Sequence record: OR896834.1
Origin: Escherichia phage Baret
Direction: 5' to 3' (one strand)
Length of the DNA stretch: 64,000 nt
The position numbers were made by a program, and so were the translations under genes. Positions 8,925 to 63,508 of the stretch are shown here, one piece after another. The notes beneath the pieces were generated by a model that was not told the origin of the DNA, did no database searches, and saw nothing but the letters and a program-made list of their open reading frames with translations. Within the stretch, counting starts at the first letter, position 1. Every line of letters starts with the position of its first letter.

Positions 8925-9677
8925 ATGGGAAAAGCACGTCAAAAAAGAGAGAACCGCAATGGTTCAAGAAAGCGTGGCAACAAATATGAGAATAACGTAA
9001 TTCAGGCTGATTTTTCTAATGATTACGCTAACCCAGTTGCTAAATCCCTAGTAGGTAAAAACCGCGAGCAAAAATCATATATCAATATGATCAAGAACAA
9101 CACAGTGACTGTGGGTATCGGTGAGCCAGGTACTGGTAAAACCTTTATTCCGTCCGTTCTTGCAGCTCAGGAACTCGTAGACATTCACTCAGATATTGAG
9201 CAAGTGATTCTCGTACGTCCTAATGAACCTCTAGGTAAGTCTCTTGGTATGCTTCCTGGTGATCTGGCGGAAAAGCTAGAGCCTTGGTTAGAGCCAATAG
9301 CTGATGGTATGAAATGGGCCATCGGCGATCATGCCTATAAGGGATATGTCGAACGTCAGAAAATTAAATTTTTGGCTGTCGAACATGCTCGTGGCAGAAC
9401 TTTCAACAACTCCTATGTAATTGTCGATGAAGCTCAGAATATTTCCGTTGAGGCAATGATTTGTCTCCTAACTCGTGTAGGGCAAGACTGCCGTTTAATT
9501 ATCTGTGGAGATATAGCTCAGAAAGACATTAAAGGTGACTCAGGTCTAGCACTCCTTATGGAAGTCTATGAGAAATATGAAAATGCCCCATTCTCAATGA
9601 TCGAATTGATTGATAACGTTCGTTCTGTTGAGTCTAAAGCATTCTATGATATTTTTAAAGATATGGGAAAGGTGTAA
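8925..9677 (+). CDS. phoH: PhoH-like ATPase
   Basis: Walker A GEPGTGKT; ATG 8925 with TAGGAG 8 nt upstream (track GTG 8916 start less likely). Confidence 0.85.
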   Translation: MGKARQKRENRNGSRKRGNKYENNVIQADFSNDYANPVAKSLVGKNREQKSYINMIKNNTVTVGIGEPGTGKTFIPSVLAAQELVDIHSDIEQVILVRPNEPLGKSLGMLPGDLAEKLEPWLEPIADGMKWAIGDHAYKGYVERQKIKFLAVEHARGRTFNNSYVIVDEAQNISVEAMICLLTRVGQDCRLIICGDIAQKDIKGDSGLALLMEVYEKYENAPFSMIELIDNVRSVESKAFYDIFKDMGKV

Positions 9678-9678
9678 T

Positions 9679-9921
9679 ATGGGAAACGTCGTTCATCTGA
9701 GCCGTAAAACTAAAATACATCGTACTTCACTGAGTGCTGCTAATATGATTACACGTAAGGAAGGGGAAGAAAGTCCTAAGACAACCCTAGCGTGGAAAAT
9801 TGTAACCTCAAATCCAAATAAACCATTCAATTATAACGAGCTGAGCACCTCTATAGATATTCTATTAAAAGAAGTAGCTAGAGCTAAAGTAATTGAACAA
9901 GCTAAAAAGCTAGACTGGTAA
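9679..9921 (+). CDS. hypothetical protein (80 aa)
   Basis: ATG 9679 directly after phoH stop; track ORF 9610-9921 trimmed. Confidence 0.4.
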   Translation: MGNVVHLSRKTKIHRTSLSAANMITRKEGEESPKTTLAWKIVTSNPNKPFNYNELSTSIDILLKEVARAKVIEQAKKLDW

Positions 9922-10042
9922 TATACAGGGCCTGGGTATGAAAATACTCGGGCCTTTTCTATCAGAAAATTTTATTTGCCTAATGACAGATAATAAAGTA
10001 GAATATTCCTTAAATCCTGATAACTATAAAAAGGAAAGCCAA

Positions 10043-12373
10043 ATGAGCCATCGCATTGAAAAAGTAATTAAACGTGACGGTACTGTAGAAGACTTTGCTC
10101 CTGAAAAACTCAATGGTTGGGCAGAGTATGGTTGCAAAACAGTTGATGTAAGTTGGTCAGCCATTACTATGGCTGCTCAAAAAACTCTGCCTAAGGGGGT
10201 TGTAGATTCCGACACTCTGATGGACGCATTAATTAAAGCTGCTGAAAGTCTTATCAAAGATAACCCAGCATACGATGTGCCAGCAAAGGAATTACGTCTT
10301 GCGCAAATGCGTAAACGCCTTTACGACTCTTTCGAACCACCTTCTCTACGCTTCTTCCATGACCATATGGTTAGCGTAGGTGCATGGGAAGACATGAGTG
10401 CATGGATTACCGATGAGCAGTTCGAAGCTCTGAATCAGGTTATCGACCATGATCGTGACCGTCTTTTTACTAGTGGTGGACTGAAACAGTTCTTTGATAA
10501 GTATTCCCGTCGTAACATAGCCACTGGTGAAATTTATGAAACTCCGCAGTTTGCCTACATGGGTATGGCAATGGCGATGTTATCTCAACCTAGCTGGACA
10601 ATTCTAGATGCAATCGACCTCTACAACGCAATGTCACTCCACAAAATCAACGTTCCTACGCCGCCACTGGTTGGTCTGCGCTCTAGTGACCGTGGATTTG
10701 CTAGTTGCTGCCTCGTGGATTCCACTGACACGTTGGATTCAATCGACACCGCCGAGCACATCGTCTTCAAAATGGTCGCAGCCAGAGCGGGAATCGGGTA
10801 TCATCTTGAAAGCCGATCAATTGCTGATCCGGTGCGAAATGGGGCATTCCCGCATTCCGGAAAACTGCCATATTATCGACACATTGACCGCTCAGTAAAG
10901 GCCAATACTCAGCAAACTCGTGGTGGTTCTGCCACAGTGTCTTATCCGTACTTCGACCCTGAAATCATTCAATTGATGCAGGTTAAGCAACAACGTGCTA
11001 CAGATGAGAATAAAATCGATAAGATGGATTATTCTCTGAGCTTTAACAATCTTTTGTTAAAACGTTATCTTAAAAACGAAGATATTACGCTAATGTCATA
11101 CTTCTATGCTCCAGAAGTTCATGAAGCGTTTTATAGTGATGACGAGGCTAAATTTGAAGAAATCTACGTGGCAGCGGAGAAACGTGTGGCATCTCTTACA
11201 AAGATCGACCACGAAGGAAAAACAGTTCCAGCAGCTCCTAAAGTCTCTGCAAAAGAAATCCTAGATACTTGGCTACGTATCCGAATGGAAACAGGACGTA
11301 TGTATGCGCATCACATCGGGGAATCTAATCGTCACGGTAATTTCCTTGATCCGATCCGTATGACAAACCTTTGTGTTGAGATTACTCAGCCTACACGCCC
11401 GTTCCACCATATCACGGAACTGTATAAAACAAAAGAACAACTTGATCAAATGAAGCCGGAGGATATTGGTGAAGTATCTCTGTGTAACTTAGGTGGTGTT
11501 GTACTTGGACGCATGGAATCTCTGGCTGAGTGGGAAAAAACTTGCTACATCCTCCTGAAATTCGTTGATACAATTATTGAAATCCAGGATTATCCGTTCC
11601 CAACTATGGAATATACGGCTAAGAAACGTCGTAATGTTGGTATTGGACTGATGAACGCAGCAGGTGCAATGGCAGCAGAAGGTCTGGCTTATGAAGGTAT
11701 TGAAGCCCGTAACTGGATTCACCGTGAGGCTGAAAAACTGTCTTACTTCCTGCATAAAGCCTCTGTACGCCTAGCTAAAGAACAGGGTGCATGTGAGTGG
11801 TTTGATCGTACTAAACCATCTAAAGGAATTCTGGTAATCGACACGTACAAGAAAACTGTTGATGAGCTGGTATCCGTAGGTCTAGAAATGGATTGGGAGT
11901 CTCTACGTGCAGATATTCTGAAATATGGTATGCGTAACTCTGTTCTGACTGCTCAGATGCCGGGAGAAAGTTCTTCTGTTCTGTTAGGTGTTACTAACTC
12001 TATTGAACCACCTCGTAAGATTGTATCTATCAAGGGTAGTGCAGTAAATAAAGTAATTGCAATTGCTCCAGGTGCAACCGATTGGGAAACGTTAATGAGC
12101 TATAAACTGGCCTATGATGTAGATCGTATCGAGTGGATCAAGTGGGTAGCAACTATGCAGAAATTCTTCAGTCAGTCTATCAGTACTAATATGTACTATG
12201 ACTACACCAAGTTTGAGAATGAAATCATTCCTGGCCCAGTAGTAGTTCGTGATTTCATGACTGCTGTTAAGTATGGGTGGAAAACTTGGTATTATGCTAA
12301 CTTCAATACCGCAAATGGTGGAGGTGCTGGAGAAGAAGCAGCCGGTTGTGCATCCGGTGGTTGTACTATTTAA
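10043..12373 (+). CDS. nrdA: ribonucleoside-diphosphate reductase large subunit (class Ia)
   Basis: 776 aa from ATG 10043 (SD AAAGGAAAG); RNR alpha motifs, C-terminal CASGGC; track start 9938 is probably an upstream extension. Confidence 0.9.
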   Translation: MSHRIEKVIKRDGTVEDFAPEKLNGWAEYGCKTVDVSWSAITMAAQKTLPKGVVDSDTLMDALIKAAESLIKDNPAYDVPAKELRLAQMRKRLYDSFEPPSLRFFHDHMVSVGAWEDMSAWITDEQFEALNQVIDHDRDRLFTSGGLKQFFDKYSRRNIATGEIYETPQFAYMGMAMAMLSQPSWTILDAIDLYNAMSLHKINVPTPPLVGLRSSDRGFASCCLVDSTDTLDSIDTAEHIVFKMVAARAGIGYHLESRSIADPVRNGAFPHSGKLPYYRHIDRSVKANTQQTRGGSATVSYPYFDPEIIQLMQVKQQRATDENKIDKMDYSLSFNNLLLKRYLKNEDITLMSYFYAPEVHEAFYSDDEAKFEEIYVAAEKRVASLTKIDHEGKTVPAAPKVSAKEILDTWLRIRMETGRMYAHHIGESNRHGNFLDPIRMTNLCVEITQPTRPFHHITELYKTKEQLDQMKPEDIGEVSLCNLGGVVLGRMESLAEWEKTCYILLKFVDTIIEIQDYPFPTMEYTAKKRRNVGIGLMNAAGAMAAEGLAYEGIEARNWIHREAEKLSYFLHKASVRLAKEQGACEWFDRTKPSKGILVIDTYKKTVDELVSVGLEMDWESLRADILKYGMRNSVLTAQMPGESSSVLLGVTNSIEPPRKIVSIKGSAVNKVIAIAPGATDWETLMSYKLAYDVDRIEWIKWVATMQKFFSQSISTNMYYDYTKFENEIIPGPVVVRDFMTAVKYGWKTWYYANFNTANGGGAGEEAAGCASGGCTI

Positions 12374-47574: not shown

Positions 47575-47759
47575 TGGAAACTCTTTTTCTTTTAATGCTC
47601 GTAGGTTCCTTGCTAGTTATATTAGCACTTCTACTGATCTGCAATATTCTTAATAATAAGAATCTAGAGCTAAAGTGTGAAAACCAAATCCTTAATCGTG
47701 AACTTAAACAATATAACATAGCAGCGCACAAGCTACTAGACAAATTGGAGAATAAGTAA
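47574..47759 (+). CDS. hypothetical membrane protein (61 aa)
   Basis: ORF track. Confidence 0.35.
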   Translation: METLFLLMLVGSLLVILALLLICNILNNKNLELKCENQILNRELKQYNIAAHKLLDKLENK

Positions 47760-48370
47760 TGACTTTATATGCACAACAACCTGTTCAAGTAGTACCAGAC
47801 CATGAATTAAATACATGGGATTATGATTTTAAAGACTTAACTGCCACTGTACAGTTCAAATCTATGAAGCTAACCTTTGCGCACACTAATATTAAAGCAT
47901 GTAAAGATTTTGAAGGTAGGCTCAACAACGCTCGTAAGATTTTTGGCAAGGCTCGCATCCCAGCTGATAATCTAATTAATACACTAATCGATGCTGGTTA
48001 TAAACTTGTAAAGACTGAGGTTAACCGTCCTAGTACTCCTGTGACTATTCGAGATCCGTGGCAGTCAGGGCCAATTACAATGTGGAACAGCCCTAAAATA
48101 ACGTCGGATTTGCACAATGTTCCATGCGGTGGCGTTATAGAAAATAATTCCTCATATCGAGTTGGTGAAGATTATGGACCTTCTGCACAATTGAAACATA
48201 CTCAAGAAGCTTTTGAATCTGATATGAAAAGCGTAGCGCCTGTGGATACTGAAGGTTTTAGAAGTCCCATCTATGTTACTCACTTTAATAATCTTAGGCC
48301 TGGGGGTATAAATGATACTATCCTTGAAGCGTTGGGAGCTGCTATTAATGAAGATAAGAGGGGTAATTAA
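47759..48370 (+). CDS. hypothetical protein (203 aa)
   Basis: ORF track. Confidence 0.45.
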   Translation: MTLYAQQPVQVVPDHELNTWDYDFKDLTATVQFKSMKLTFAHTNIKACKDFEGRLNNARKIFGKARIPADNLINTLIDAGYKLVKTEVNRPSTPVTIRDPWQSGPITMWNSPKITSDLHNVPCGGVIENNSSYRVGEDYGPSAQLKHTQEAFESDMKSVAPVDTEGFRSPIYVTHFNNLRPGGINDTILEALGAAINEDKRGN

Positions 48371-49095
48371 TGAGTATAAAAAAGAATTTAGCAGAGATTA
48401 TTAAGTTAGCTAGAGCTTGTAATGGAAAATGTGTTTCTCAGCTTAATGAACTAGAGGCACATGCAGTAGCGTTTTGTGCAGAGTTTTACCCTGCATATAT
48501 TAACGCTAGTGGACAGCCGAAATATAATAAGGATGCCGAAGAAGTTACGTTAGCTCCTTCATATATTAGCTTGCGTCGTTTAATTCAAACCGTTGATCCT
48601 ACTATTAAAGGATTCTCAGCAGATTCATTCCACGTCTTTGCAGATAAAGAACTCCCGTATTTTAAAGAAGGAAATGCAAAGTCATGTTTAGAATGTTATC
48701 CTAATATACTGATGATTCCTCAAAAGCAATGTAAATACGATCATCTTCCTAGACTTACAAAGAAAGTAGCACCACCTTATTCTTCTCTATCTGAATTAAA
48801 GCTAGGAATTGTATCTACACTTGCGCAGATTCATCTAAGTATAGTTGACGACTCAACAACATCTAACCCTATTCTAGACGCTGCTCACTTTGAAATTTTA
48901 CGTGATCCTGAACAAGCTAGAAAAGTTGCTAAGTCTGTTAAGTTTGATATATCAACAATTCTTGACACTAAACAAGAAACTAGACCTAGAGGAAGTGTAG
49001 ATTATTCTGCGCTAAATTCCGAGTCATCTTACTTAGCAACATTCCTTTTCATGGCGTCAAAAGGGGTTATTCTAAAGGTTAATAAAGATGGATGA
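48370..49095 (+). CDS. hypothetical protein (241 aa)
   Basis: ORF track. Confidence 0.45.
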   Translation: MSIKKNLAEIIKLARACNGKCVSQLNELEAHAVAFCAEFYPAYINASGQPKYNKDAEEVTLAPSYISLRRLIQTVDPTIKGFSADSFHVFADKELPYFKEGNAKSCLECYPNILMIPQKQCKYDHLPRLTKKVAPPYSSLSELKLGIVSTLAQIHLSIVDDSTTSNPILDAAHFEILRDPEQARKVAKSVKFDISTILDTKQETRPRGSVDYSALNSESSYLATFLFMASKGVILKVNKDG

Positions 49096-49816
49096 TTTAC
49101 GTGCTGAAATTAATAAAAAGTTACGAGAGGAAGCCCGGAGGTTTCCTCTTAAAAACTTTTTGAAGTCAAATGGCTCTACTAATATAACGAAGATTAGGCA
49201 ACTTCACCCTGACTTCCAACAAGAGGCCTTAAACCTTATCTTTATTAGGAAAGCTTTAAAAGTCCAGAAAGAAGAGTATGGGTATGAAAGAGTTAATTAT
49301 AAGACAGCCAATCAGTTAGTAGAGATATGGTGCTATAAACATAAAGGATACTTTATGCAAACTGCTAGATCTCACCTAGATGGGCACGGTTGTTTACAAT
49401 GTGCTAGGGAAAGCAACCTAAATACACCTATCGAGAAACCGGAGGTAGAAGAAGATGTTCAGTCCCCCACATATCTCTATATCTTCTCTAATAAAGATCA
49501 GTCTAGGAAGAAATTAAAGACAAAGATTGGGGTTTCTAGAGAGCCACATCAAAGGTTTAAGAATCTAGAGTATGATAAATTGCGTGTGCCGGGTTTTGAA
49601 GATATGGAAGTATTTGGTATCTACCAGTATAAGAAAGGATCGAAAGAACTCGCTTACAAAATAGAACACCAAGCACATAAATTTTTCGAGAATAAATTTG
49701 CTAACCATTATAAATTCGATGGAGCAAAAGAGATATTCAACATTAAAGCTGTAGAGGCAGAAGAATATCTATTAAGTCAAGGTTGCATAAAAATTTACCC
49801 AACTCCAAACTCATGA
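49088..49816 (+). CDS. homing-endonuclease-like protein with C-terminal T5orf172/GIY-YIG-like domain
   Basis: 242 aa; C-terminal YLYIFSNK...KIGVSREPHQRFK resembles the GFVYCISNP...YKIGMS motif of ORF 26222-26740; N-terminal domain paralogous to 46633-47079. Confidence 0.45.
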   Translation: MDDLRAEINKKLREEARRFPLKNFLKSNGSTNITKIRQLHPDFQQEALNLIFIRKALKVQKEEYGYERVNYKTANQLVEIWCYKHKGYFMQTARSHLDGHGCLQCARESNLNTPIEKPEVEEDVQSPTYLYIFSNKDQSRKKLKTKIGVSREPHQRFKNLEYDKLRVPGFEDMEVFGIYQYKKGSKELAYKIEHQAHKFFENKFANHYKFDGAKEIFNIKAVEAEEYLLSQGCIKIYPTPNS

Positions 49817-49843
49817 CAAAAATTTAAAAGTAACGAAATCTGC

Positions 49844-49873
49844 TTGACATTCGTGAGAATAATGTGTTATAAT
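49844..49873 (+). promoter_or_regulatory. consensus sigma70-type promoter (TTGACA-18-TATAAT) reading into the repeat tract
   Basis: -35 49844-49849, -10 49868-49873; no ORF downstream for ~1.7 kb. Confidence 0.55.
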
Positions 49874-50360
49874 AATCTCATAGATTAAAAACATCAACTT
49901 GTTTTTACCTCTAGGCCGTAGATTTACATCATTCCTCGTAGGAAAACACTTGATGACGGTTCTGTTCGCAGGTTCTCGTCAATTGTTCTTCCACACCGAG
50001 ACTTAGGAGGATGTATCAAATCGCACGCGCCTAGAGGGACTAACTCTCATGAAATGGGGGTATATTTACTTTTAAATAACTAAAAAATATTTAAAGGCAA
50101 TATCTGTGTTCAAGATGATACACCTGTTGCCGCTCATCTGCTAGGATGGCACAACACTTTCTTCTAGACTCCTAAGTTTCTAGGAATAGTTGAGCACTAA
50201 CTCTAGAGTTTACATTAAACTTTAAATCTGCTTCTCTAGTTAACTCAGGCGGTTTTCATATTCCTAGAAACTCCAGCAATAGGCGGTTAATACAGGGCGG
50301 TTATAGGGAGGGCGGTTATTTCTAAGAGACATTTTTTGAAAACACATTTCCAGAAATTAC

Positions 50361-50961
50361 TGTCGGATTTGCACATTGTGTTTCTAGAAATTTATGGTCG
50401 GATTTGCACAAACGCCTAAGTTTTTAGGAACTCTTACTCTCCTGAAAATACCAGCATTATTTCGGGCCGAAGGCCCGTGATTGCCTGAGTTTTTAGAGCC
50501 ACAGAAATTTTCACTTGTCAAGCTATTTTGCCACCTTTAGCAAATAAAATCTTACTTTATCTCCACTAATCTCAAATTAACCCAAATCTTCTCAACTCTT
50601 CCCCAAAAACGCAGCAAATCAGGTGCTCCGCACCAAACATGCTGCTCCTCCAGTTTCTCCTCTTATTTTCTCTCGCTCTCTCATCTTCTCCTCAAACCTA
50701 TACAATCACACACTCTCCAATCGAAGTCACAAAAATCTTGTCGGTTTCGCACACCTCAACACATGTCGGATCTGCACATATTCTAGCTAATTCCACAGGA
50801 TTCGAACGCAGTTCGTGATTGCTGGAGTTTCTAGAAAAATTCATTGTCGGATTTGCACACTATAAAAATTTTTCGGGTCGGATTTGCACACTACCAAAAA
50901 TTGTCGGATTCGCACATACACGCCCACACGTAACACCCGTGGAGCAATGTCGGATTTGCAC
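50361..50961. repeat. array of 8 direct copies of a 14-mer (GTCGGATTTGCACA and close variants)
   Basis: Copies at ~50361, 50396, 50739, 50764, 50845, 50876, 50902, 50948, all same orientation, irregular spacing. Confidence 0.85.
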
Positions 50962-50990
50962 AAAAGCGCAGGGCAATTGCCCTGCTCGCC

Positions 50991-51168
50991 TGAATGCGAA
51001 TGATAATGAGAATCAATCTTATTTAAAAAGCGGAATGAGAATGATAATGATTCGCATTTAAGAAAGGGAATGAGAGCTATTCAAGAAGTGAAATGATTCT
51101 CATTTAAGAAAGGAAATGATTATCGGTTAGACAGTGGAATGCGAATGATAATGATTCGCATTTAAAAA
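50991..51168. repeat. three palindromic units of type AATGCGAATGATAATGATTCGCATT
   Basis: Units near 50993-51017 (partial), 51031-51060, 51137-51166, plus degenerate copy ~51066-51106. Confidence 0.75.
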
Positions 51169-51194
51169 CGGAAGTGAGAAACACTGTTATTTAA

Positions 51195-51276
51195 GTTATC
51201 CACAGACTTATCAACAGCACGATTTGACTTGACAGAATCCTAGCCATTTTGAGGCGTTATTAACAGACTTATCCAC
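51195..51276. promoter_or_regulatory. DnaA-box cluster (2 x TTATCCACA)
   Basis: TTATCCACA at ~51195-51203 and ~51268-51276. Confidence 0.6.
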
Positions 51277-51284
51277 AGCTTATC

Positions 51285-51304
51285 CTACTGTATAAATATA
51301 CAGT
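51285..51304. promoter_or_regulatory. SOS-box-like palindrome TACTGTATAAATATACAGTA
   Basis: CTGT-N8-ACAG with AT-rich centre, matching the LexA operator pattern. Confidence 0.5.
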
Positions 51305-51561
51305 ATTCCTATGTAGTGAATAATTCTAATATAGGCCTAAAACGTCCTGAATCGCATTCTAACGCGTTTAATTTTGATGGGGATACTAAAACAAGGGCAA
51401 AATTGGAGGAGGCTTAAAAATTAGTTAGCTTGCTAACGATCACACAAGGCGACATGTAACACCTTAATCATTAGCAGGCTAACCATCGCGGGCGCGGTTA
51501 AATGAGAATCACTCTCATTTGAGAATTGGGGGCACTCCCTGGTAGTTACGCCCCGTTATTA

Positions 51562-51786
51562 TTAGTCTGGTAGTCGATGCGTGATCTTTTCCTCCTCCCC
51601 GTAGGAATCCACCAAATGCTGATAATAACCATCGGCATCATAAATAACGCTATCATATTCGCCACGCTCGACCGCTTGCCGATTCTCCGGCGTATCGGGC
51701 ACGTAAAAAACATCAACCATTGTACTGATTTTGGTTACAACAATTTTATTGTTCATAATAACCCCTAGTAAATATATTTTTGCCAA
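51562..51786 (-). CDS. hypothetical acidic protein (64-74 aa)
   Basis: ORF track; last gene of minus-strand pre-early block. Confidence 0.4.
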   Translation of the reverse strand: MAKIYLLGVIMNNKIVVTKISTMVDVFYVPDTPENRQAVERGEYDSVIYDADGYYQHLVDSYGEEEKITHRLPD

Positions 51787-54503: not shown

Positions 54504-54769
54504 TTGTTGGCCTCCCTCGTTAATCGGTGAGTGAATGATAAAGGCAATTTTCTAGCATAGGCAAATATTATTTTACCTTTTTATTTTCCTTGCCTAGCGC
54601 CTAGTTTTATGCTAACCGCGCAGCGGTACAGTAAAGAGCAAAACACGGTGAAGCCACCAGGGCGACGGGTGAAGGCTTTACTTTAATATTACCCCACCGC
54701 ATTTAGCTCGTTAGAAAGCGTTTTAGGCCGCTTAAAATTGATTGCAGTTGTTAACACTACCCATTTACC

Positions 54770-54785
54770 CTGTATATTTATACAG
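54770..54785. promoter_or_regulatory. SOS-box-like palindrome CTGTATATTTATACAG
   Basis: CTGT-N8-ACAG; inverted counterpart of the element at 51285-51304. Confidence 0.5.
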
Positions 54786-54795
54786 TAGGATAACA

Positions 54796-54879
54796 TGTGG
54801 ATAAGTCTGTGGATAAGTCCTTATATCGCCGCCTATCGTGTCAAATCATTTTGTGCTGTTAATAACATTGTGGATAACT
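54796..54879. promoter_or_regulatory. DnaA-box cluster (3 x TGTGGATAA)
   Basis: TGTGGATAA at ~54796-54804, ~54808-54816 and TTGTGGATAAC ~54868-54878. Confidence 0.6.
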
Positions 54880-54911
54880 TAAATGATAGTGGTTCTCACT
54901 TAGGACGATAG

Positions 54912-61750: not shown

Positions 61751-63508
61751 ATGGGTTTTTTCGCTGGAAAGTATAGCGATGGTAAGACCGTACTATCTTT
61801 AAATACTGAATCTGGGGGTGACATTAATCGTCACTATAGCCCAAATAATAATAGTATTTTTCATAGTGATATGCCATTTGTCCTAGTTGATGGTACTTAT
61901 GAGGCAGGATTAGGTGATGCCGGGAATGGGTTTTTCGTATGTCAGATGCCTCCTGATATAGTAAATATTAAATCTAATGATCCTGGTAGAGTTATACTAA
62001 CTGCTATTGAGATTAATGGTACTCACAGAGCTTTTCTTAATGGTACTCAGAGTAAAGTTGGTCAAACTATAGTTGCCACTCAAGCAGACCCCTTTAGATC
62101 TTTTGCTAGTGTTTCTCAAACCAGTGGATTTGCATTTGGTAATAGTCTAGCATCTGGAACTTATAATTATAACCCATCGATAGGGCACGAAGAATCTATC
62201 TCTAGGAGTGGTACAGGCGGTACTACGTTACATAGTACCTACCATGGGATAGTTAGGCCTGGTGCGGGAGCTCCTGTAGGTGTTACTGTTGCAGAAGCTT
62301 TTGCACAATTAGGGTTCCCTACTAACAGTAGCACAGTACCTGTAGATGGCAATAACCCGTACTATTGGGATCCTGGATGGATGTCACCCCTAGGAGCAGC
62401 GCATAGAGGGCATGATTGGTTTTATGTCTGCAATTCTAATATACGTGGGTACGGTGGGGTTAGACAAGGGCTCCCAGGTAATGTAAATACTATGTACCAC
62501 GATGGTGGGGATAGATTTGTTTGTAGGGGATCTACTACTAATTTAGCTAACCAGTCTGGTAATTCTACAATACTACAGGATGGATATAATATAACTCCTA
62601 CTAAGGTTATTTGGTATGTTCTTAACTTAAGGTACTCGAATGGCGGTATGAGTATTTCCGGCAACCCCTTTACGGGTTCTGATATTCTTATATCTCCTTC
62701 TAATTTTATAATTAAAGGGGTAAGTCTCCCTAATACCGGGTATAAATTTATAAATCAGAATGCTTTTGGTAACCTAGGTTACCGTCCTGATATGGAGTAT
62801 ATAGGGAATAACGCAGCGTATACTGGAGTTTTTGGGGATACCACTGCAAGGTGTGAACTTGTAGGATCTAGTAATGGGGGTTTGTGGTCTCCTGTAGATT
62901 ATGGAGGGGCTAAATCTCAAATTAGTATTTATAAATTTGGGGCAGGTAAACAATGGTATGTAAACTCAAATAATAATACTATTGGTAATGAACATGGGGT
63001 TGTTTGGGGACCCTCAGCAGTTCCACTGCGACTTTTTGGTGGAAATGTAGGTAGTTCTTATATGGGAGATGATATTACTCCCAGCTACCCAGGAACTGGG
63101 GATAGATACGTTGGTTTATCCACTATTGGGCTAGGTATACCGGGTGGCAATGCTACAGTAATTCTTACCACTGAAGTTATATCAGGTAACCTTAACTGTG
63201 CAGGTGTTCCTGCTAATACATGGAATAACGGTGTGTTTCAAGTGCAAGGAAGAAGAGCATATAGCTATAGTAATGGAGATGCAATATTCCACCAGATTTT
63301 AACATTACCAGTAGGGTATTTAGTACCTTTTCATACTACATCTGCTTTTAGGTACACACCTAACAATGCCCTAAGTAGAAATAGTTTTATATATACTGCT
63401 AAAAATCTGGGGAATGGAAATGTAGAGTTAGGGGTAGTTATGCACGTAAGTTTAGGTAGTGCAGTTTTCCTACCGAGATTAAGAGTAACAGTTCAACGCC
63501 TTACCTAA
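61751..63508 (+). CDS. receptor-binding tail protein (pb5/Oad-like)
   Basis: 585 aa; N-terminal M-G-FFAGK and C-terminal ...VQRLT resemble what I recall of T5 pb5; Gly/Asn/Thr-rich; adjacent divergent llp. Confidence 0.6.

What the first reader, a model, noticed from the sequence alone, without database searches (positions are those of the whole stretch)
49844..51560. Repeat-dense non-coding tract with an 8-copy 14-mer array and a consensus promoter firing into it
After the last early ORF (ends 49816) comes a near-consensus TTGACA-18-TATAAT promoter, then ~1.7 kb with no credible ORF. The tract holds 8 same-orientation copies of GTCGGATTTGCACA (50361-50961), four GGCGGTTA copies (~50247-50317), TTCTAGAAA-type palindromes and three AATGCGAATGATAATGATTCGCATT palindromic units whose TGATAAT half resembles a Fur-box half-site. 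The position matches where the injection stop signal of T5-like phages maps; the mechanism of that signal is unresolved, so these arrays are candidate protein-binding sites or an ncRNA source.
Basis: partly seen in the sequence, partly recalled or inferred. Interest (0 to 1): 0.65.

Follow-up and report, generated by a model that had tools for sequence, protein, structure and literature searches.

The report
T5-type injection-stop and terminal-repeat junction
This non-coding stretch is this phage's copy of the long-known but still unexplained "injection stop signal" region of phage T5; it also holds the genome end, a cluster of sites that look like host iron-regulator (Fur) binding sites, and a probable small structured RNA gene that I found annotated nowhere.

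Summary
The promoter, the 8-copy 14-mer array, the GGCGGTT repeats, the palindromes and the absence of genes are all there and are far beyond chance.

It is not new. The tract aligns at about 90% identity, in reverse orientation, to T5 "Repeat Region 3", which contains the annotated injection stop signal (iss). The mechanism is still described as unresolved in 2026 papers.

What the tools add:
1. The tract is composite. The physical genome end (the terminal-repeat boundary) maps inside it at 50495|50496, flanked on both sides by the 14-mer copies.
2. The palindromes are good Fur boxes. A model built only from phage half-sites finds 7 of 7 known Fur-regulated promoter regions among its top 11 loci in 200 kb of E. 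coli.
3. The promoter does not simply fire into the arrays. It drives a terminator-bounded RNA of about 190 nt (49880-50073). This RNA occurs at the same locus in at least 10 versions with unrelated sequences and the same fold, across three T5-like subgroups, and I found it annotated nowhere.

Verdict: a known element with two new, testable leads.

The parts
49844..49873 (+). Sigma-70 promoter TTGACA-18-TGTTATAAT (extended -10). The transcription start is inferred at about 49880.
   Evidence: 12/12 consensus match. The TGTTAnnAT -10 and the leader AUAGAUUAA are kept in every T5-like locus, even where the -35 is degenerate. My1-like and IME260-like loci keep it too.
49880..50073 (+). Candidate structured non-coding RNA of about 190 nt: 5' hairpin 49886-49907, long imperfect rod 49908-50036, terminator-like hairpin 50042-50061, then a U-rich tail.
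   Evidence: MFE -64.2 kcal/mol, z = -5.8 against dinucleotide shuffles. At least 10 versions with unrelated sequences fold the same way, with z from -2.3 to -6.5 (9 of 10 at or below -4). Compensatory changes are present. The + strand folds better than the - strand in 8 of 9 rods. There is no Rfam match and no GenBank annotation.
50110..50180 (.). Highly conserved block of unknown role (TTCAAGATGATACACCTGTTGCCGCTCATCTGCTAGGATGGCAC...).
   Evidence: Mean column conservation of 50100-50179 is 0.92 across 15 genomes, with most columns of 50110-50180 invariant, including T5 where the neighbouring RNA differs. It is not significantly structured as RNA.
50224..50237 (+). Decayed ninth copy of the 14-mer (T5 direct repeat D copy 9).
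   Evidence: Aligned to intact copies in T5 and Spc35. It lies in the least conserved stretch of the tract, where conservation is 0.57.
50248..50318 (+). Four same-strand GGCGGTT(A/T) repeats.
   Evidence: AGGGCGGTT is also present at the same relative place in the My1-like and IME260-like loci.
50362..50410 (+). Two 14-mer copies outside the terminal repeat (T5 DRD8 at 50362-50375, DRD7 at 50397-50410).
   Evidence: Column conservation is 0.995-1.0.
50463..50478 (.). GC hairpin CGGGCC-GAA-GGCCCG, just outside the repeat boundary.
   Evidence: -12 kcal/mol, z = -2.4. Conservation 0.95.
50480..50530 (.). Terminal-repeat boundary block. The genome end maps to 50495|50496 (GAGTTTTTA|GAGCCACAG).
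   Evidence: Six deposited genome records start or stop exactly here. It matches the annotated ends of the T5 and Spc35 left terminal repeats. It is among the two best-conserved blocks of the tract (0.97). The TTTTT|..TGTCAA context is kept in My1-like and IME260-like loci.
50531..50735 (+). Pyrimidine-rich spacer inside the repeat (the region of T5 direct repeat A).
   Evidence: C-rich equivalents are present in the My1-like and IME260-like loci.
50740..50962 (+). Six 14-mer copies inside the terminal repeat (T5 DRD6 to DRD1). The spacings of 25, 81, 31, 26 and 46 nt are identical to T5.
   Evidence: The 14-mer columns are better conserved than the spacers (0.95 against 0.87, p = 1.5e-4).
50966..50985 (-). 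Hairpin GCAGGGCAATTGCCCTGC followed by GCTTTTG (T5 palindrome J). It looks like a terminator for rightward pre-early transcription and is the homologue of the T5 major nick at 7.9%.
   Evidence: Terminator scan. -15.8 kcal/mol, z = -2.7. T5 features. Conservation 0.97.
50993..51165 (.). Array of Fur-box-like palindromes (T5 direct repeat C / palE-I); an isolated unit lies at 51501-51519.
   Evidence: 14-15 of 19 matches to the Fur consensus. 16 of 21 identity to the fhuA operator. The phage-derived motif retrieves 7 of 7 Fur-regulated regions of E. coli. These are the top hits of an E. coli-derived model in the window. 3-5 such sites are present in all 17 genomes checked.
51172..51318 (.). Arm of a 147-nt inverted repeat (T5 IRD'-spacer-IRC'). 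It carries paired DnaA boxes: TTATCCACA 51196, TTATCAACA 51208, TTATTAACA 51257, TTATCCACA 51269.
   Evidence: Described for 25 T5-like phages in bioRxiv 10.1101/866236.
54755..54901 (.).
   Evidence: 76% complementary over 147 nt, 3436 nt away. Boxes at 54796, 54808 and 54869.
48103..48116 (+). Outlying exact copy of the 14-mer inside the early ORF 47759-48370.
   Evidence: Present in T5 and most type-1 relatives. It is a conservation island: 0.95 against 0.83 for the ORF, including third codon positions.

Best explanation
The tract is this phage's copy of T5 'Repeat Region 3'. That is the non-coding junction between the ~10-kb terminal repeat, which carries the pre-early genes and enters the cell first, and the early genes. 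It is a composite of cis-acting elements, not a single array.

Reading from the early side:
(a) An early promoter that makes a discrete, strongly folded RNA of about 190 nt.
(b) A conserved block, GGCGGTT repeats and two to three copies of the 14-mer.
(c) The end of the virion DNA.
(d) Six more 14-mer copies.
(e) A hairpin that probably ends rightward pre-early transcription and marks the 7.9% nick.
(f) A cluster of host-protein operators: 3-5 Fur boxes, then two pairs of DnaA boxes.

Shown here:
- homology to the T5 region;
- the order of the elements and its conservation across three T5-like subgroups;
- the quality of the Fur-box and DnaA-box motifs;
- the fold of the RNA.

Inferred mechanism:
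- In T5 the sheared first-step DNA ends at about 7.9%, inside the Fur-box unit next to the hairpin. At the pause the Fur and DnaA operators are therefore just inside the cell, and the 14-mer arrays are still in the envelope or tail.
- I take the operator cluster to be the part that host proteins bind to hold the DNA at the entry site. This is Davison's DnaA proposal, extended to Fur.
- I take the 14-mer arrays that bracket the genome end to be sites for a conserved phage protein. That protein would act on this end, either in release or cutting by A1/A2, or in terminase recognition.
- The RNA gene is the first transcription unit to enter when transfer resumes.

My confidence is about 0.95 in the identity of the region, about 0.6 that Fur binds these sites, and about 0.3 in the arrest mechanism as stated.
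For: Identity:
- About 90% alignment to T5 9290-10600.
- That T5 stretch carries the iss and repeat annotations.
- 455 T5-like phage records match the tract.

Conservation:
- The same order of elements is found in 15 type-1 genomes and in My1-like and IME260-like loci.
- The 14-mer columns are better conserved than the spacers.

DnaA boxes:
- 5 of the 6 exact TTATCCACA in 64 kb lie in the two arms of a 147-nt inverted repeat.

Fur boxes:
- 14-15 of 19 matches to the consensus.
- 19 of 21 (IME260-like unit) and 16 of 21 (window units) identity to the fhuA operator.
- The phage-only motif model finds 7 of 7 Fur-regulated regions among its top 11 loci in 200 kb of E. coli. Column-permuted models mostly find 0-2.
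- The reciprocal scan puts its top 11 hits all inside the terminal repeat.

Genome end:
-.

RNA:
-.

Literature:
- The stop maps to this region and the mechanism is unresolved.
Against: - No binding, transcript or phenotype data exist for this phage.
- Proteins that bind DNA already inside the cell would be expected to pull DNA in, not stop it, so the arrest model is physically unproven.
- Fur is inactive under iron limitation, the condition in which the T5 receptor FhuA is most expressed. That argues against Fur being essential for the stop.
- The Fur-like palindromes could equally be read by a phage protein.
- The shear-point estimate for T5 (about 9618) is only approximate.
- The 14-mer found no informative match in 200 kb of E. 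coli, so its binding partner is unknown.
Confidence: 0.55

Rival explanations
1. The 14-mer arrays and the conserved junction block are the packaging or terminus-generation site, not the stop signal. They would be recognition sites for the terminase, or for an end-processing protein that cuts concatemers at 50495|50496 and regenerates the terminal repeat. This does not exclude a stop function for the neighbouring operator cluster.
For: - The genome end maps in the 343-nt gap between copies 6 and 7.
- Copies lie on both sides of the end in type 1 (6 + 3), the My1-like locus (5 inside, about 5 weaker matches outside) and the IME260-like locus (5 + 6).
- The block at the end is among the two best-conserved parts of the tract.
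- From general knowledge: P1 pac has hexamer repeats on both sides of its cut, lambda cosB has R sites, and the T7 terminal repeat is flanked by short-repeat arrays with a promoter reading towards the junction.
- T5 ejects its left end first, so packaging should start at this right end.
Against: - No 14-mer copies lie near the other repeat boundary at about 60537.
- An extra conserved copy sits 2.3 kb away inside an early gene, which a cut-site model does not explain.
- Nothing is known of T5 terminase recognition.
Confidence: 0.35
2. The long inverted repeat after the promoter works as DNA, not RNA. It would be a hairpin or cruciform used in replicating or duplicating the terminal repeat, as proposed for T7 concatemer processing.
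For: - It lies 420-615 nt from the genome end.
- The rod is kept while its sequence is replaced.
- The - strand also folds well, from -31 to -50 kcal/mol.
Against: - A conserved promoter and leader sit exactly upstream, and a G-rich hairpin plus U-run sits downstream, in every version.
- The + strand is more stable in 8 of 9 rods.
- In the + strand folds of the rods there are 26 G-U pairs and no A-C 1x1 mismatch.
- Within the T5 type, all three single-side changes that keep a pair do so through G-U on the + strand.
Confidence: 0.15
3. The tract is a replication origin: DnaA boxes, iteron-like direct repeats and a promoter-made primer RNA.
For: - DnaA boxes occur in pairs.
- There are 8-11 same-orientation direct repeats.
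- A strong promoter and a structured RNA lie nearby.
Against: - The repeat spacing is irregular (25 to 343 nt), unlike helically phased iterons.
- Electron-microscopy work cited by Davison places T5 origins near the genome centre, and the replication genes are not expressed during the first step.
- The RNA ends at a terminator before the repeats.
Confidence: 0.08
4. The repeats are neutral leftovers of duplications in junk DNA and have no function.
For: No gene is present, and one copy (the ninth) has decayed in this phage.
Against: - The order, number and spacing of the elements are kept across three subgroups that share little other DNA identity.
- The motif columns are better conserved than the spacers.
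- According to Davison, the tract is better conserved than the adjacent pre-early genes.
Confidence: 0.02

Closest known systems
Phage T5 injection stop signal / 'Repeat Region 3' (Heusterspreute et al. 1987; Wang et al. 2005, GenBank AY587007; Davison 2015 and bioRxiv 10.1101/866236)
   Same: It is orthologous DNA, about 90% identical. It has the same position at the inner end of the long terminal repeat. Direct repeat D has identical spacings. It has the same palindromes, the same DnaA-box pairs and inverted-repeat partner, the same hairpin at the 7.9% nick, and the same repeat boundary.
   Different: Copy 9 of direct repeat D has decayed. The roughly 190 nt after the promoter is a different sequence version from T5's. 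The flanking early gene is a homing-endonuclease-like ORF that T5 lacks at this place.
Fur operators of E. coli iron-uptake promoters (fhuA, fepA-fes, fepD-entS, fepB-entC, fecI, cirA)
   Same: It has the three-hexamer (forward-forward-x-reverse) and 7-1-7 layouts and 14-15 of 19 matches to the consensus. Identity to the fhuA operator is 16 of 21 for the window units and 19 of 21 for an IME260-like unit. The phage motif model and the E. coli sites find each other.
   Different: The outer hexamers are GCGAAT or GAGAAT instead of GATAAT. The sites do not overlap an evident regulated promoter. They form an array of 3-5 sites at the end of a phage terminal repeat. Binding has not been tested.
Clusters of DnaA boxes outside an origin (oriC-like arrangement; the datA-type titration locus)
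   Same: Consensus TTATCCACA boxes occur in pairs 3 bp apart and are repeated in two arms. Davison proposes capture by membrane-associated DnaA.
   Different: There is no AT-rich unwinding element and no evidence of initiation here. The function is proposed, not shown.
Terminase recognition sites with repeats flanking the cut (P1 pac, lambda cosB, SPP1 pacL/pacR; the T7 terminal repeat with flanking short-repeat arrays and promoters). These comparisons are from general knowledge.
   Same: A specific DNA end lies between two sets of same-orientation short repeats, with a promoter reading towards it.
   Different: The scale is much larger (a 343-nt gap, about 740 nt in all). There are no copies at the other repeat boundary. 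The binding protein is unknown.
Small regulatory RNAs bounded by a promoter and an intrinsic terminator, with allele-specific stems (plasmid copy-control and antisense RNAs; RNase III-type long hairpins of T7 early RNA)
   Same: It has a 5' hairpin, a long imperfect rod and a 3' hairpin with a U-run. The fold is kept while the sequence is replaced.
   Different: It matches none of the 4227 Rfam families. No complementary target was found in the window. Expression has not been shown.

Membership tests
T5-type injection stop signal region (Repeat Region 3) | Non-coding tract at the inner end of the long terminal repeat, after the rightward pre-early operon, overrunning into unique DNA | tested here: met
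   The terminal repeat is window 50496 to about 60537. The tract spans 49817-51561, between the last early ORF and the last pre-early ORF.
T5-type injection stop signal region (Repeat Region 3) | Nine same-orientation copies of direct repeat D (TGTGCAAATCCGAC) in the T5 order and spacing, straddling the repeat end | tested here: met
   8 copies with spacings 35/343/25/81/31/26/46, against 35/344/25/81/31/26/46 in T5; the ninth copy has decayed.
T5-type injection stop signal region (Repeat Region 3) | Direct repeat C / palindromes E-I and the palindrome J hairpin at the site of the 7.9% nick | tested here: met
   Aligned to the annotated T5 features. The hairpin was scored. The nick itself cannot be seen in the sequence.
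T5-type injection stop signal region (Repeat Region 3) | IRD'-spacer-IRC' carrying DnaA-box pairs 3 bp apart, with an inverted partner further inside the repeat | tested here: met
   147-nt arms at 51172-51318 and 54755-54901. Boxes. The two box pairs start 61 nt apart, as in T5.
T5-type injection stop signal region (Repeat Region 3) | Acts in cis to halt DNA transfer after about 8% of the genome | not testable with these tools
   This needs blender/shear or qPCR transfer assays. It has been verified experimentally only for T5 and BF23, according to the preprint.
Fur box | Match to the 19-bp consensus GATAATGATAATCATTATC, with hexamers arranged forward-forward-x-reverse | tested here: met
   14-15 of 19 matches at 50996, 51002, 51037 and 51141. 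GCGAAT-GATAAT-G-ATTCGC can be read directly from the sequence.
Fur box | The motif is the same one that marks genuine Fur-regulated promoters | tested here: met
   The phage-only dyad model finds 7 of 7 Fur-regulated intergenic regions among its top 11 loci in 200 kb of E. coli. 200 permuted models mostly give 0-2, with a maximum of 6 reached once.
Fur box | Bound by metal-loaded Fur | not testable with these tools
   Needs EMSA or footprinting, or a Fur titration assay with the cloned 50990-51170 fragment.
DnaA box cluster | Consensus TT(A/T)TNCACA boxes clustered beyond chance | tested here: met
   The relaxed pattern is not enriched over the whole window (11 found, 8.1 expected). However, 5 of the 6 exact TTATCCACA lie in the two 147-nt arms. 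Binding was not tested.
Terminase recognition (pac/cos-type) site | Contains the DNA end produced at packaging | tested here: inconclusive
   The end is placed at 50495|50496 by homology to six records that start or stop there. No reads from this phage were available to confirm it.
Terminase recognition (pac/cos-type) site | Repeated binding motifs flank the cut and are bound by the small terminase | not testable with these tools
   Flanking repeats are present. Binding is unknown.
Iteron-type replication origin | Direct repeats at regular, helically phased spacing next to an unwinding element | tested here: not met
   The spacings are 25, 26, 31, 35, 46, 81 and 343 nt.
Any described RNA family (Rfam 15) | Covariance-model match at 49880-50073 or its equivalents in relatives | tested here: not met
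   No hit at E <= 1 in the window. No hit at the element in seven relatives.
Promoter-to-terminator small RNA gene (generic) | Consensus promoter, a fold more stable than shuffles, base pairs kept through changes, an intrinsic terminator | tested here: met
   Promoter. Fold stability: z from -2.3 to -6.5 in 10 versions, 9 of them at or below -4. Pairing: 94.8% of cells paired against 41-52% in slid controls, and 8 pairs changed on both sides. Three further compensatory pairs within the T5 type. The terminator-like hairpin is weak and rich in G-U pairs. A transcript has not been shown.

The most novel reading that the evidence does not exclude
The T5-family stop-and-resume switch would be built from host operators and a phage RNA that nobody has described.

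- An array of genuine Fur boxes sits next to the DnaA boxes just inside the stop point. This would tie two-step DNA transfer to the host iron regulator.
- The first unit to enter when transfer resumes is a gene for a structured RNA of about 190 nt. It exists as at least 10 alleles with the same fold and unrelated sequences, which suggests a specificity or arms-race determinant.

Taken separately, I put the chance that the RNA is real and expressed at about 0.7, that Fur binds these sites at about 0.6, and that either takes part in the transfer switch at about 0.15.
Probability: 0.15. Interest if true: 0.8.

Novelty: already known. Interest (0 to 1): 0.4.

Why it matters
How T5 stops DNA entry at 8% and restarts it has been open since the 1960s, and 2026 papers still call it poorly understood. 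The tract itself adds nothing new: it is the known region in one more phage.

Three observations turn a "bewildering array of repeats" into separable parts:
- the palindromes behave as Fur operators;
- the genome end lies between the two 14-mer arrays;
- the adjacent promoter makes a discrete, strongly folded and hypervariable RNA.

Each part has a specific, cheap experiment: Fur and DnaA binding, transfer assays in mutant hosts, terminase binding, and a Northern blot or re-mapping of existing RNA-seq data. T5-like phages are widely used in therapy and biocontrol and resist most restriction systems, so their entry mechanism has practical weight.

Tried and rejected
- RNAalifold on a plain MAFFT alignment of 13 RNA versions gave no pairs. 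Sequence alignment cannot align versions that share a fold but not a sequence. I used per-version folding and within-version alignments instead.
- A search for a target complementary to the RNA within the window found only 10-12-mers at chance level.
- BLAST of the RNA and of the palindrome array against 5,426 E. coli genomes found nothing. Short operators are below BLAST sensitivity in 28 Gb.
- The 14-mer core gave only chance-level 2-mismatch hits inside genes in 200 kb of E. coli.
- A two-copy 14-mer-core pattern across 185,579 genomes gave 7 hits. Six are unrelated tandem repeats and one is a mis-binned T5-like contig. There is therefore no sign of a host site for the 14-mer.
- I considered the 14-mer as a weak DnaA box, since ATTTGCACA is one base off the relaxed consensus. 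I rejected this as unsupported because the spacing is irregular.
- Small ORFs in the tract are not intact across relatives and have no Pfam or PHROG hit.
- The conserved block 50100-50190 is not significantly structured as RNA.
- Chi-site content is recorded only as an aside.
- Literature searches for a T5 small RNA, or for a link between Fur and T5, found nothing.
- Davison 2015 could not be read, and Heusterspreute 1987 and Wang 2005 were not read. Prior mention of the RNA or of Fur in those papers cannot be excluded.
Full report
**What is there**

Window 49817-51561 has no ORF longer than 80 aa. It lies between a + strand early ORF that ends at 49816 and a - strand ORF that ends at 51562.

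- A perfect TTGACA-18-TATAAT promoter with an extended -10 lies at 49844-49873. It is the only 12/12 match in 3.5 kb.
- There are eight same-strand copies of GTCGGATTTGCACA between 50362 and 50962, five exact and three with 1-2 mismatches. The window holds 10 matches against 0.28 expected, and none of 100 shuffles came close.
- There are three GGCGGTTA and one GGCGGTTT at 50248-50318.
- TTTCTAGAAA occurs twice, and there is a family of AATG(A/C)GAAT...ATTC(G/T)CATT palindromes at 50993-51165 and at 51501.
- None of the small ORFs is intact in all 15 aligned relatives, and none hits Pfam or PHROGs.

**What it is**

The tract matches 455 T5-like phage records. Its reverse complement aligns at about 90% identity with T5 coordinates 9290-10600.

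- The T5 RefSeq record annotates 9140-10149 as "injection stop signal (iss)".
- The Hangzhou T5 record annotates every repeat. Direct repeat D copies 1-9 are the 14-mer. Palindrome J carries the major 7.9% nick. Direct repeat B holds the DnaA-box pairs. The left terminal repeat ends at 10139.
- The spacing of the eight copies in the window (35, 343, 25, 81, 31, 26, 46) equals T5's. The ninth copy has decayed.
- Davison's preprint describes this 1.66-kb non-coding region, its conservation in 25 T5-like phages and the DnaA boxes, and proposes arrest by membrane-bound DnaA.
- Papers from 2026 still call the mechanism poorly understood.

The finding is therefore real and correctly interpreted, but already known.

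**The tract is composite and contains the genome end**

Six deposited genomes start or stop exactly at the equivalent of window 50495|50496 (GAGTTTTTA|GAGCCACAG). This agrees with the annotated repeat ends of T5 and Spc35.

The other repeat boundary maps to about 60537. The window therefore comes from an assembly with a single collapsed copy of a roughly 10-kb terminal repeat. Positions 49817-50495 are unique DNA, and 50496-51561 is the inner end of the repeat.

The 14-mer copies bracket this end: six lie inside and two, plus the decayed one, lie outside. The same layout holds in a My1-like locus and an IME260-like locus, which share almost no other DNA identity with the window. Their order is: GGCGGTT repeats, TCGGATTTGCAC copies, a TTTTT|...TGTCAA junction with a C-rich stretch, more copies, the palindromes, then DnaA-type boxes.

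Column conservation in a 15-genome alignment:

| Element | Conservation |
|---|---|
| Junction block | 0.97 |
| Hairpin at the nick | 0.97 |
| DnaA-box arm | 0.96 |
| 14-mer columns | 0.95 |
| Spacers between 14-mers | 0.87 (p = 1.5e-4 against the 14-mer columns) |
| 50180-50281 | 0.57 |

All 17 genomes examined have 8-11 copies of the 14-mer core.

**DnaA boxes**

Exact TTATCCACA occurs six times in 64 kb. Five of these lie in the two arms of a 147-nt inverted repeat, 51172-51318 and 54755-54901, which brackets the rightward pre-early operon. This confirms Davison's description for this phage.

**Fur boxes**

- The palindromes match the 19-bp Fur consensus at 14-15 positions.
- They have its hexamer layout: GCGAAT-GATAAT-G-ATTCGC in the long units and TGAGAAT-C-ATTCTCA in the short ones.
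- The verified fhuA operator of E. coli K-12, ATAATAATCATTCTCGTTTAC, is identical at 19 of 21 positions to a unit of the IME260-like phage, and at 16 of 21 to the window's units.
- As an unbiased test I built a dyad model from 59 phage half-sites only and scanned four 50-kb pieces of E. coli K-12. All seven known Fur-regulated intergenic regions in those pieces were among the top 11 loci: fepA-fes, fepD-entS, fepB-entC, fhuA, fecI, fecA and cirA. Together they make up 1,460 of 200,000 bases.
- As a control, 200 column-permuted models recovered 0-2 regions in 193 cases and never 7.
- The reverse scan used a model built from those E. coli sites, so it is partly circular. Its top 11 hits in the window all lie inside the terminal repeat.
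- Every genome checked has 3-5 such sites at the same place.

Whether Fur binds these sites is untested. A phage protein with a similar specificity is an alternative.

**The promoter makes a discrete structured RNA**

Transcription from about 49880 would produce a 5' hairpin (49886-49907), a roughly 130-nt imperfect rod (49908-50036) and a G-rich hairpin with a U-rich tail (50042-50073). The first 14-mer copy lies about 290 nt further on.

- The fold has an MFE of -64.2 kcal/mol and z = -5.8 against dinucleotide shuffles.
- Between the conserved promoter with its leader and a conserved anchor at 50112, relatives carry sequence-unrelated versions. These are types A, A', B, C, D, E, F and T5, plus the My1-like and IME260-like versions. 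All have the same architecture, with z from -2.3 to -6.5 and 9 of 10 at or below -4.
- Within the T5 type, three pairs changed on both sides and stayed paired, three single changes stayed paired through G-U, and one pair broke.
- On a sequence-based alignment of 12 A-type members, 94.8% of cells pair, against 41-52% when partners are slid. Eight pairs changed on both sides; 3 of 500 shuffles reached that. One of the eight is A-U to G-C in the 5' hairpin.
- The + strand folds better than the - strand in 8 of 9 rods. Together with the promoter and terminator, this favours RNA over a DNA hairpin.
- No Rfam family matches in the window or in seven relatives.
- No record I opened annotates the element.
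- Version A alone is present in 124 phage records.
- The function is unknown, and no complementary target exists in the window. By position, it is the first transcription unit to enter once second-step transfer begins; this is an inference.

**How it most likely works**

Homology, element order, conservation and motif quality are shown. The rest is inferred.

In T5 the sheared first-step DNA ends at about 7.9%, inside the palindrome unit next to the hairpin. At the pause, the Fur and DnaA operators are therefore just inside the cell, while the 14-mer arrays and the repeat end are still in the envelope or tail.

I take the operator cluster as the host-protein-binding part of the stop signal. 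I take the 14-mer arrays as sites for a conserved phage protein that acts on this DNA end.

The strongest rival, not an exclusive one, is that the arrays and the junction block are the terminase or end-processing site. By general knowledge they resemble P1 pac, lambda cosB and the repeat-flanked T7 junction.

An origin of replication is unlikely: the spacing is irregular, and published work places the origins near the genome centre. Neutral junk is excluded by the conservation.

**Verdict**

It is of moderate interest, because the analysis yields two concrete and testable additions, Fur operators and an unannotated hypervariable structured RNA, and separates a possible packaging role from the stop signal.

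Noticed in passing
window 48103-48116: An exact extra copy of the 14-mer lies inside the early ORF 47759-48370 (phrog_5271, function unknown). It is present in T5 and most type-1 relatives. It forms a conservation island (0.95 against 0.83 for the ORF), including third codon positions.
   Followed up: partly
window 49088-49816: The ORF just upstream of the promoter has a T5orf172 domain and hits endonuclease / homing-endonuclease PHROGs. T5 has a different gene at this place. A mobile endonuclease next to the hypervariable RNA locus might drive its mosaicism.
   Followed up: partly
window 51805, 52367, 55062 (all - strand): There are three Chi sites (GCTGGTGG), against 0.86 expected. All lie inside the terminal repeat and in one orientation. 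By my reading, that is the orientation seen by RecBCD entering from the repeat end at 50496.
   Followed up: no
window 53262, 54882, 60289, 60489: Further Fur-box-like sites lie inside the terminal repeat. One is in the dmp-like gene (60289, 16 of 19 to the consensus) and one is just before the left genome end (60489). The top 11 Fur-model hits of the window are all in the repeat.
   Followed up: partly
window 50496 to about 60537, and beyond: The window is from an assembly with one collapsed copy of the terminal repeat. After about 60537 the sequence continues into what must be the right-end unique region, which includes a 585-aa ORF at 61751-63508 that I did not examine.
   Followed up: partly
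window 50110-50180: This 70-nt block is almost invariant across 15 genomes, including T5. It has no significant RNA fold and no ORF, and its role is unknown.
   Followed up: partly
window 49880-50500: CTAG is locally enriched: 9 in 620 nt against a window mean of 2.8, the maximum in the window. It mostly occurs within (T/C)TCTAG(A/G) motifs. One such motif (GAGTTTTTAGA) spans the genome end, and it recurs at 50814-50835 and, inverted, at 50258-50280.
   Followed up: no
L248 (SABI01000336.1): A 2.6-kb contig filed under a Spirochaetia metagenome-assembled genome is a T5-like phage fragment (the early ORF with its internal 14-mer, plus two array copies). It is probably mis-binned.
   Followed up: no
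L250 (CAZMBF010000179.1), about 1620-1780 on the - strand: A 22-nt tandem array, ATAGTC(G/T)(G/C)GA(T/C)TGCACCATTTT, contains the 14-mer core in an alphaproteobacterial metagenome contig. It looks like iterons and is probably unrelated.
   Followed up: no
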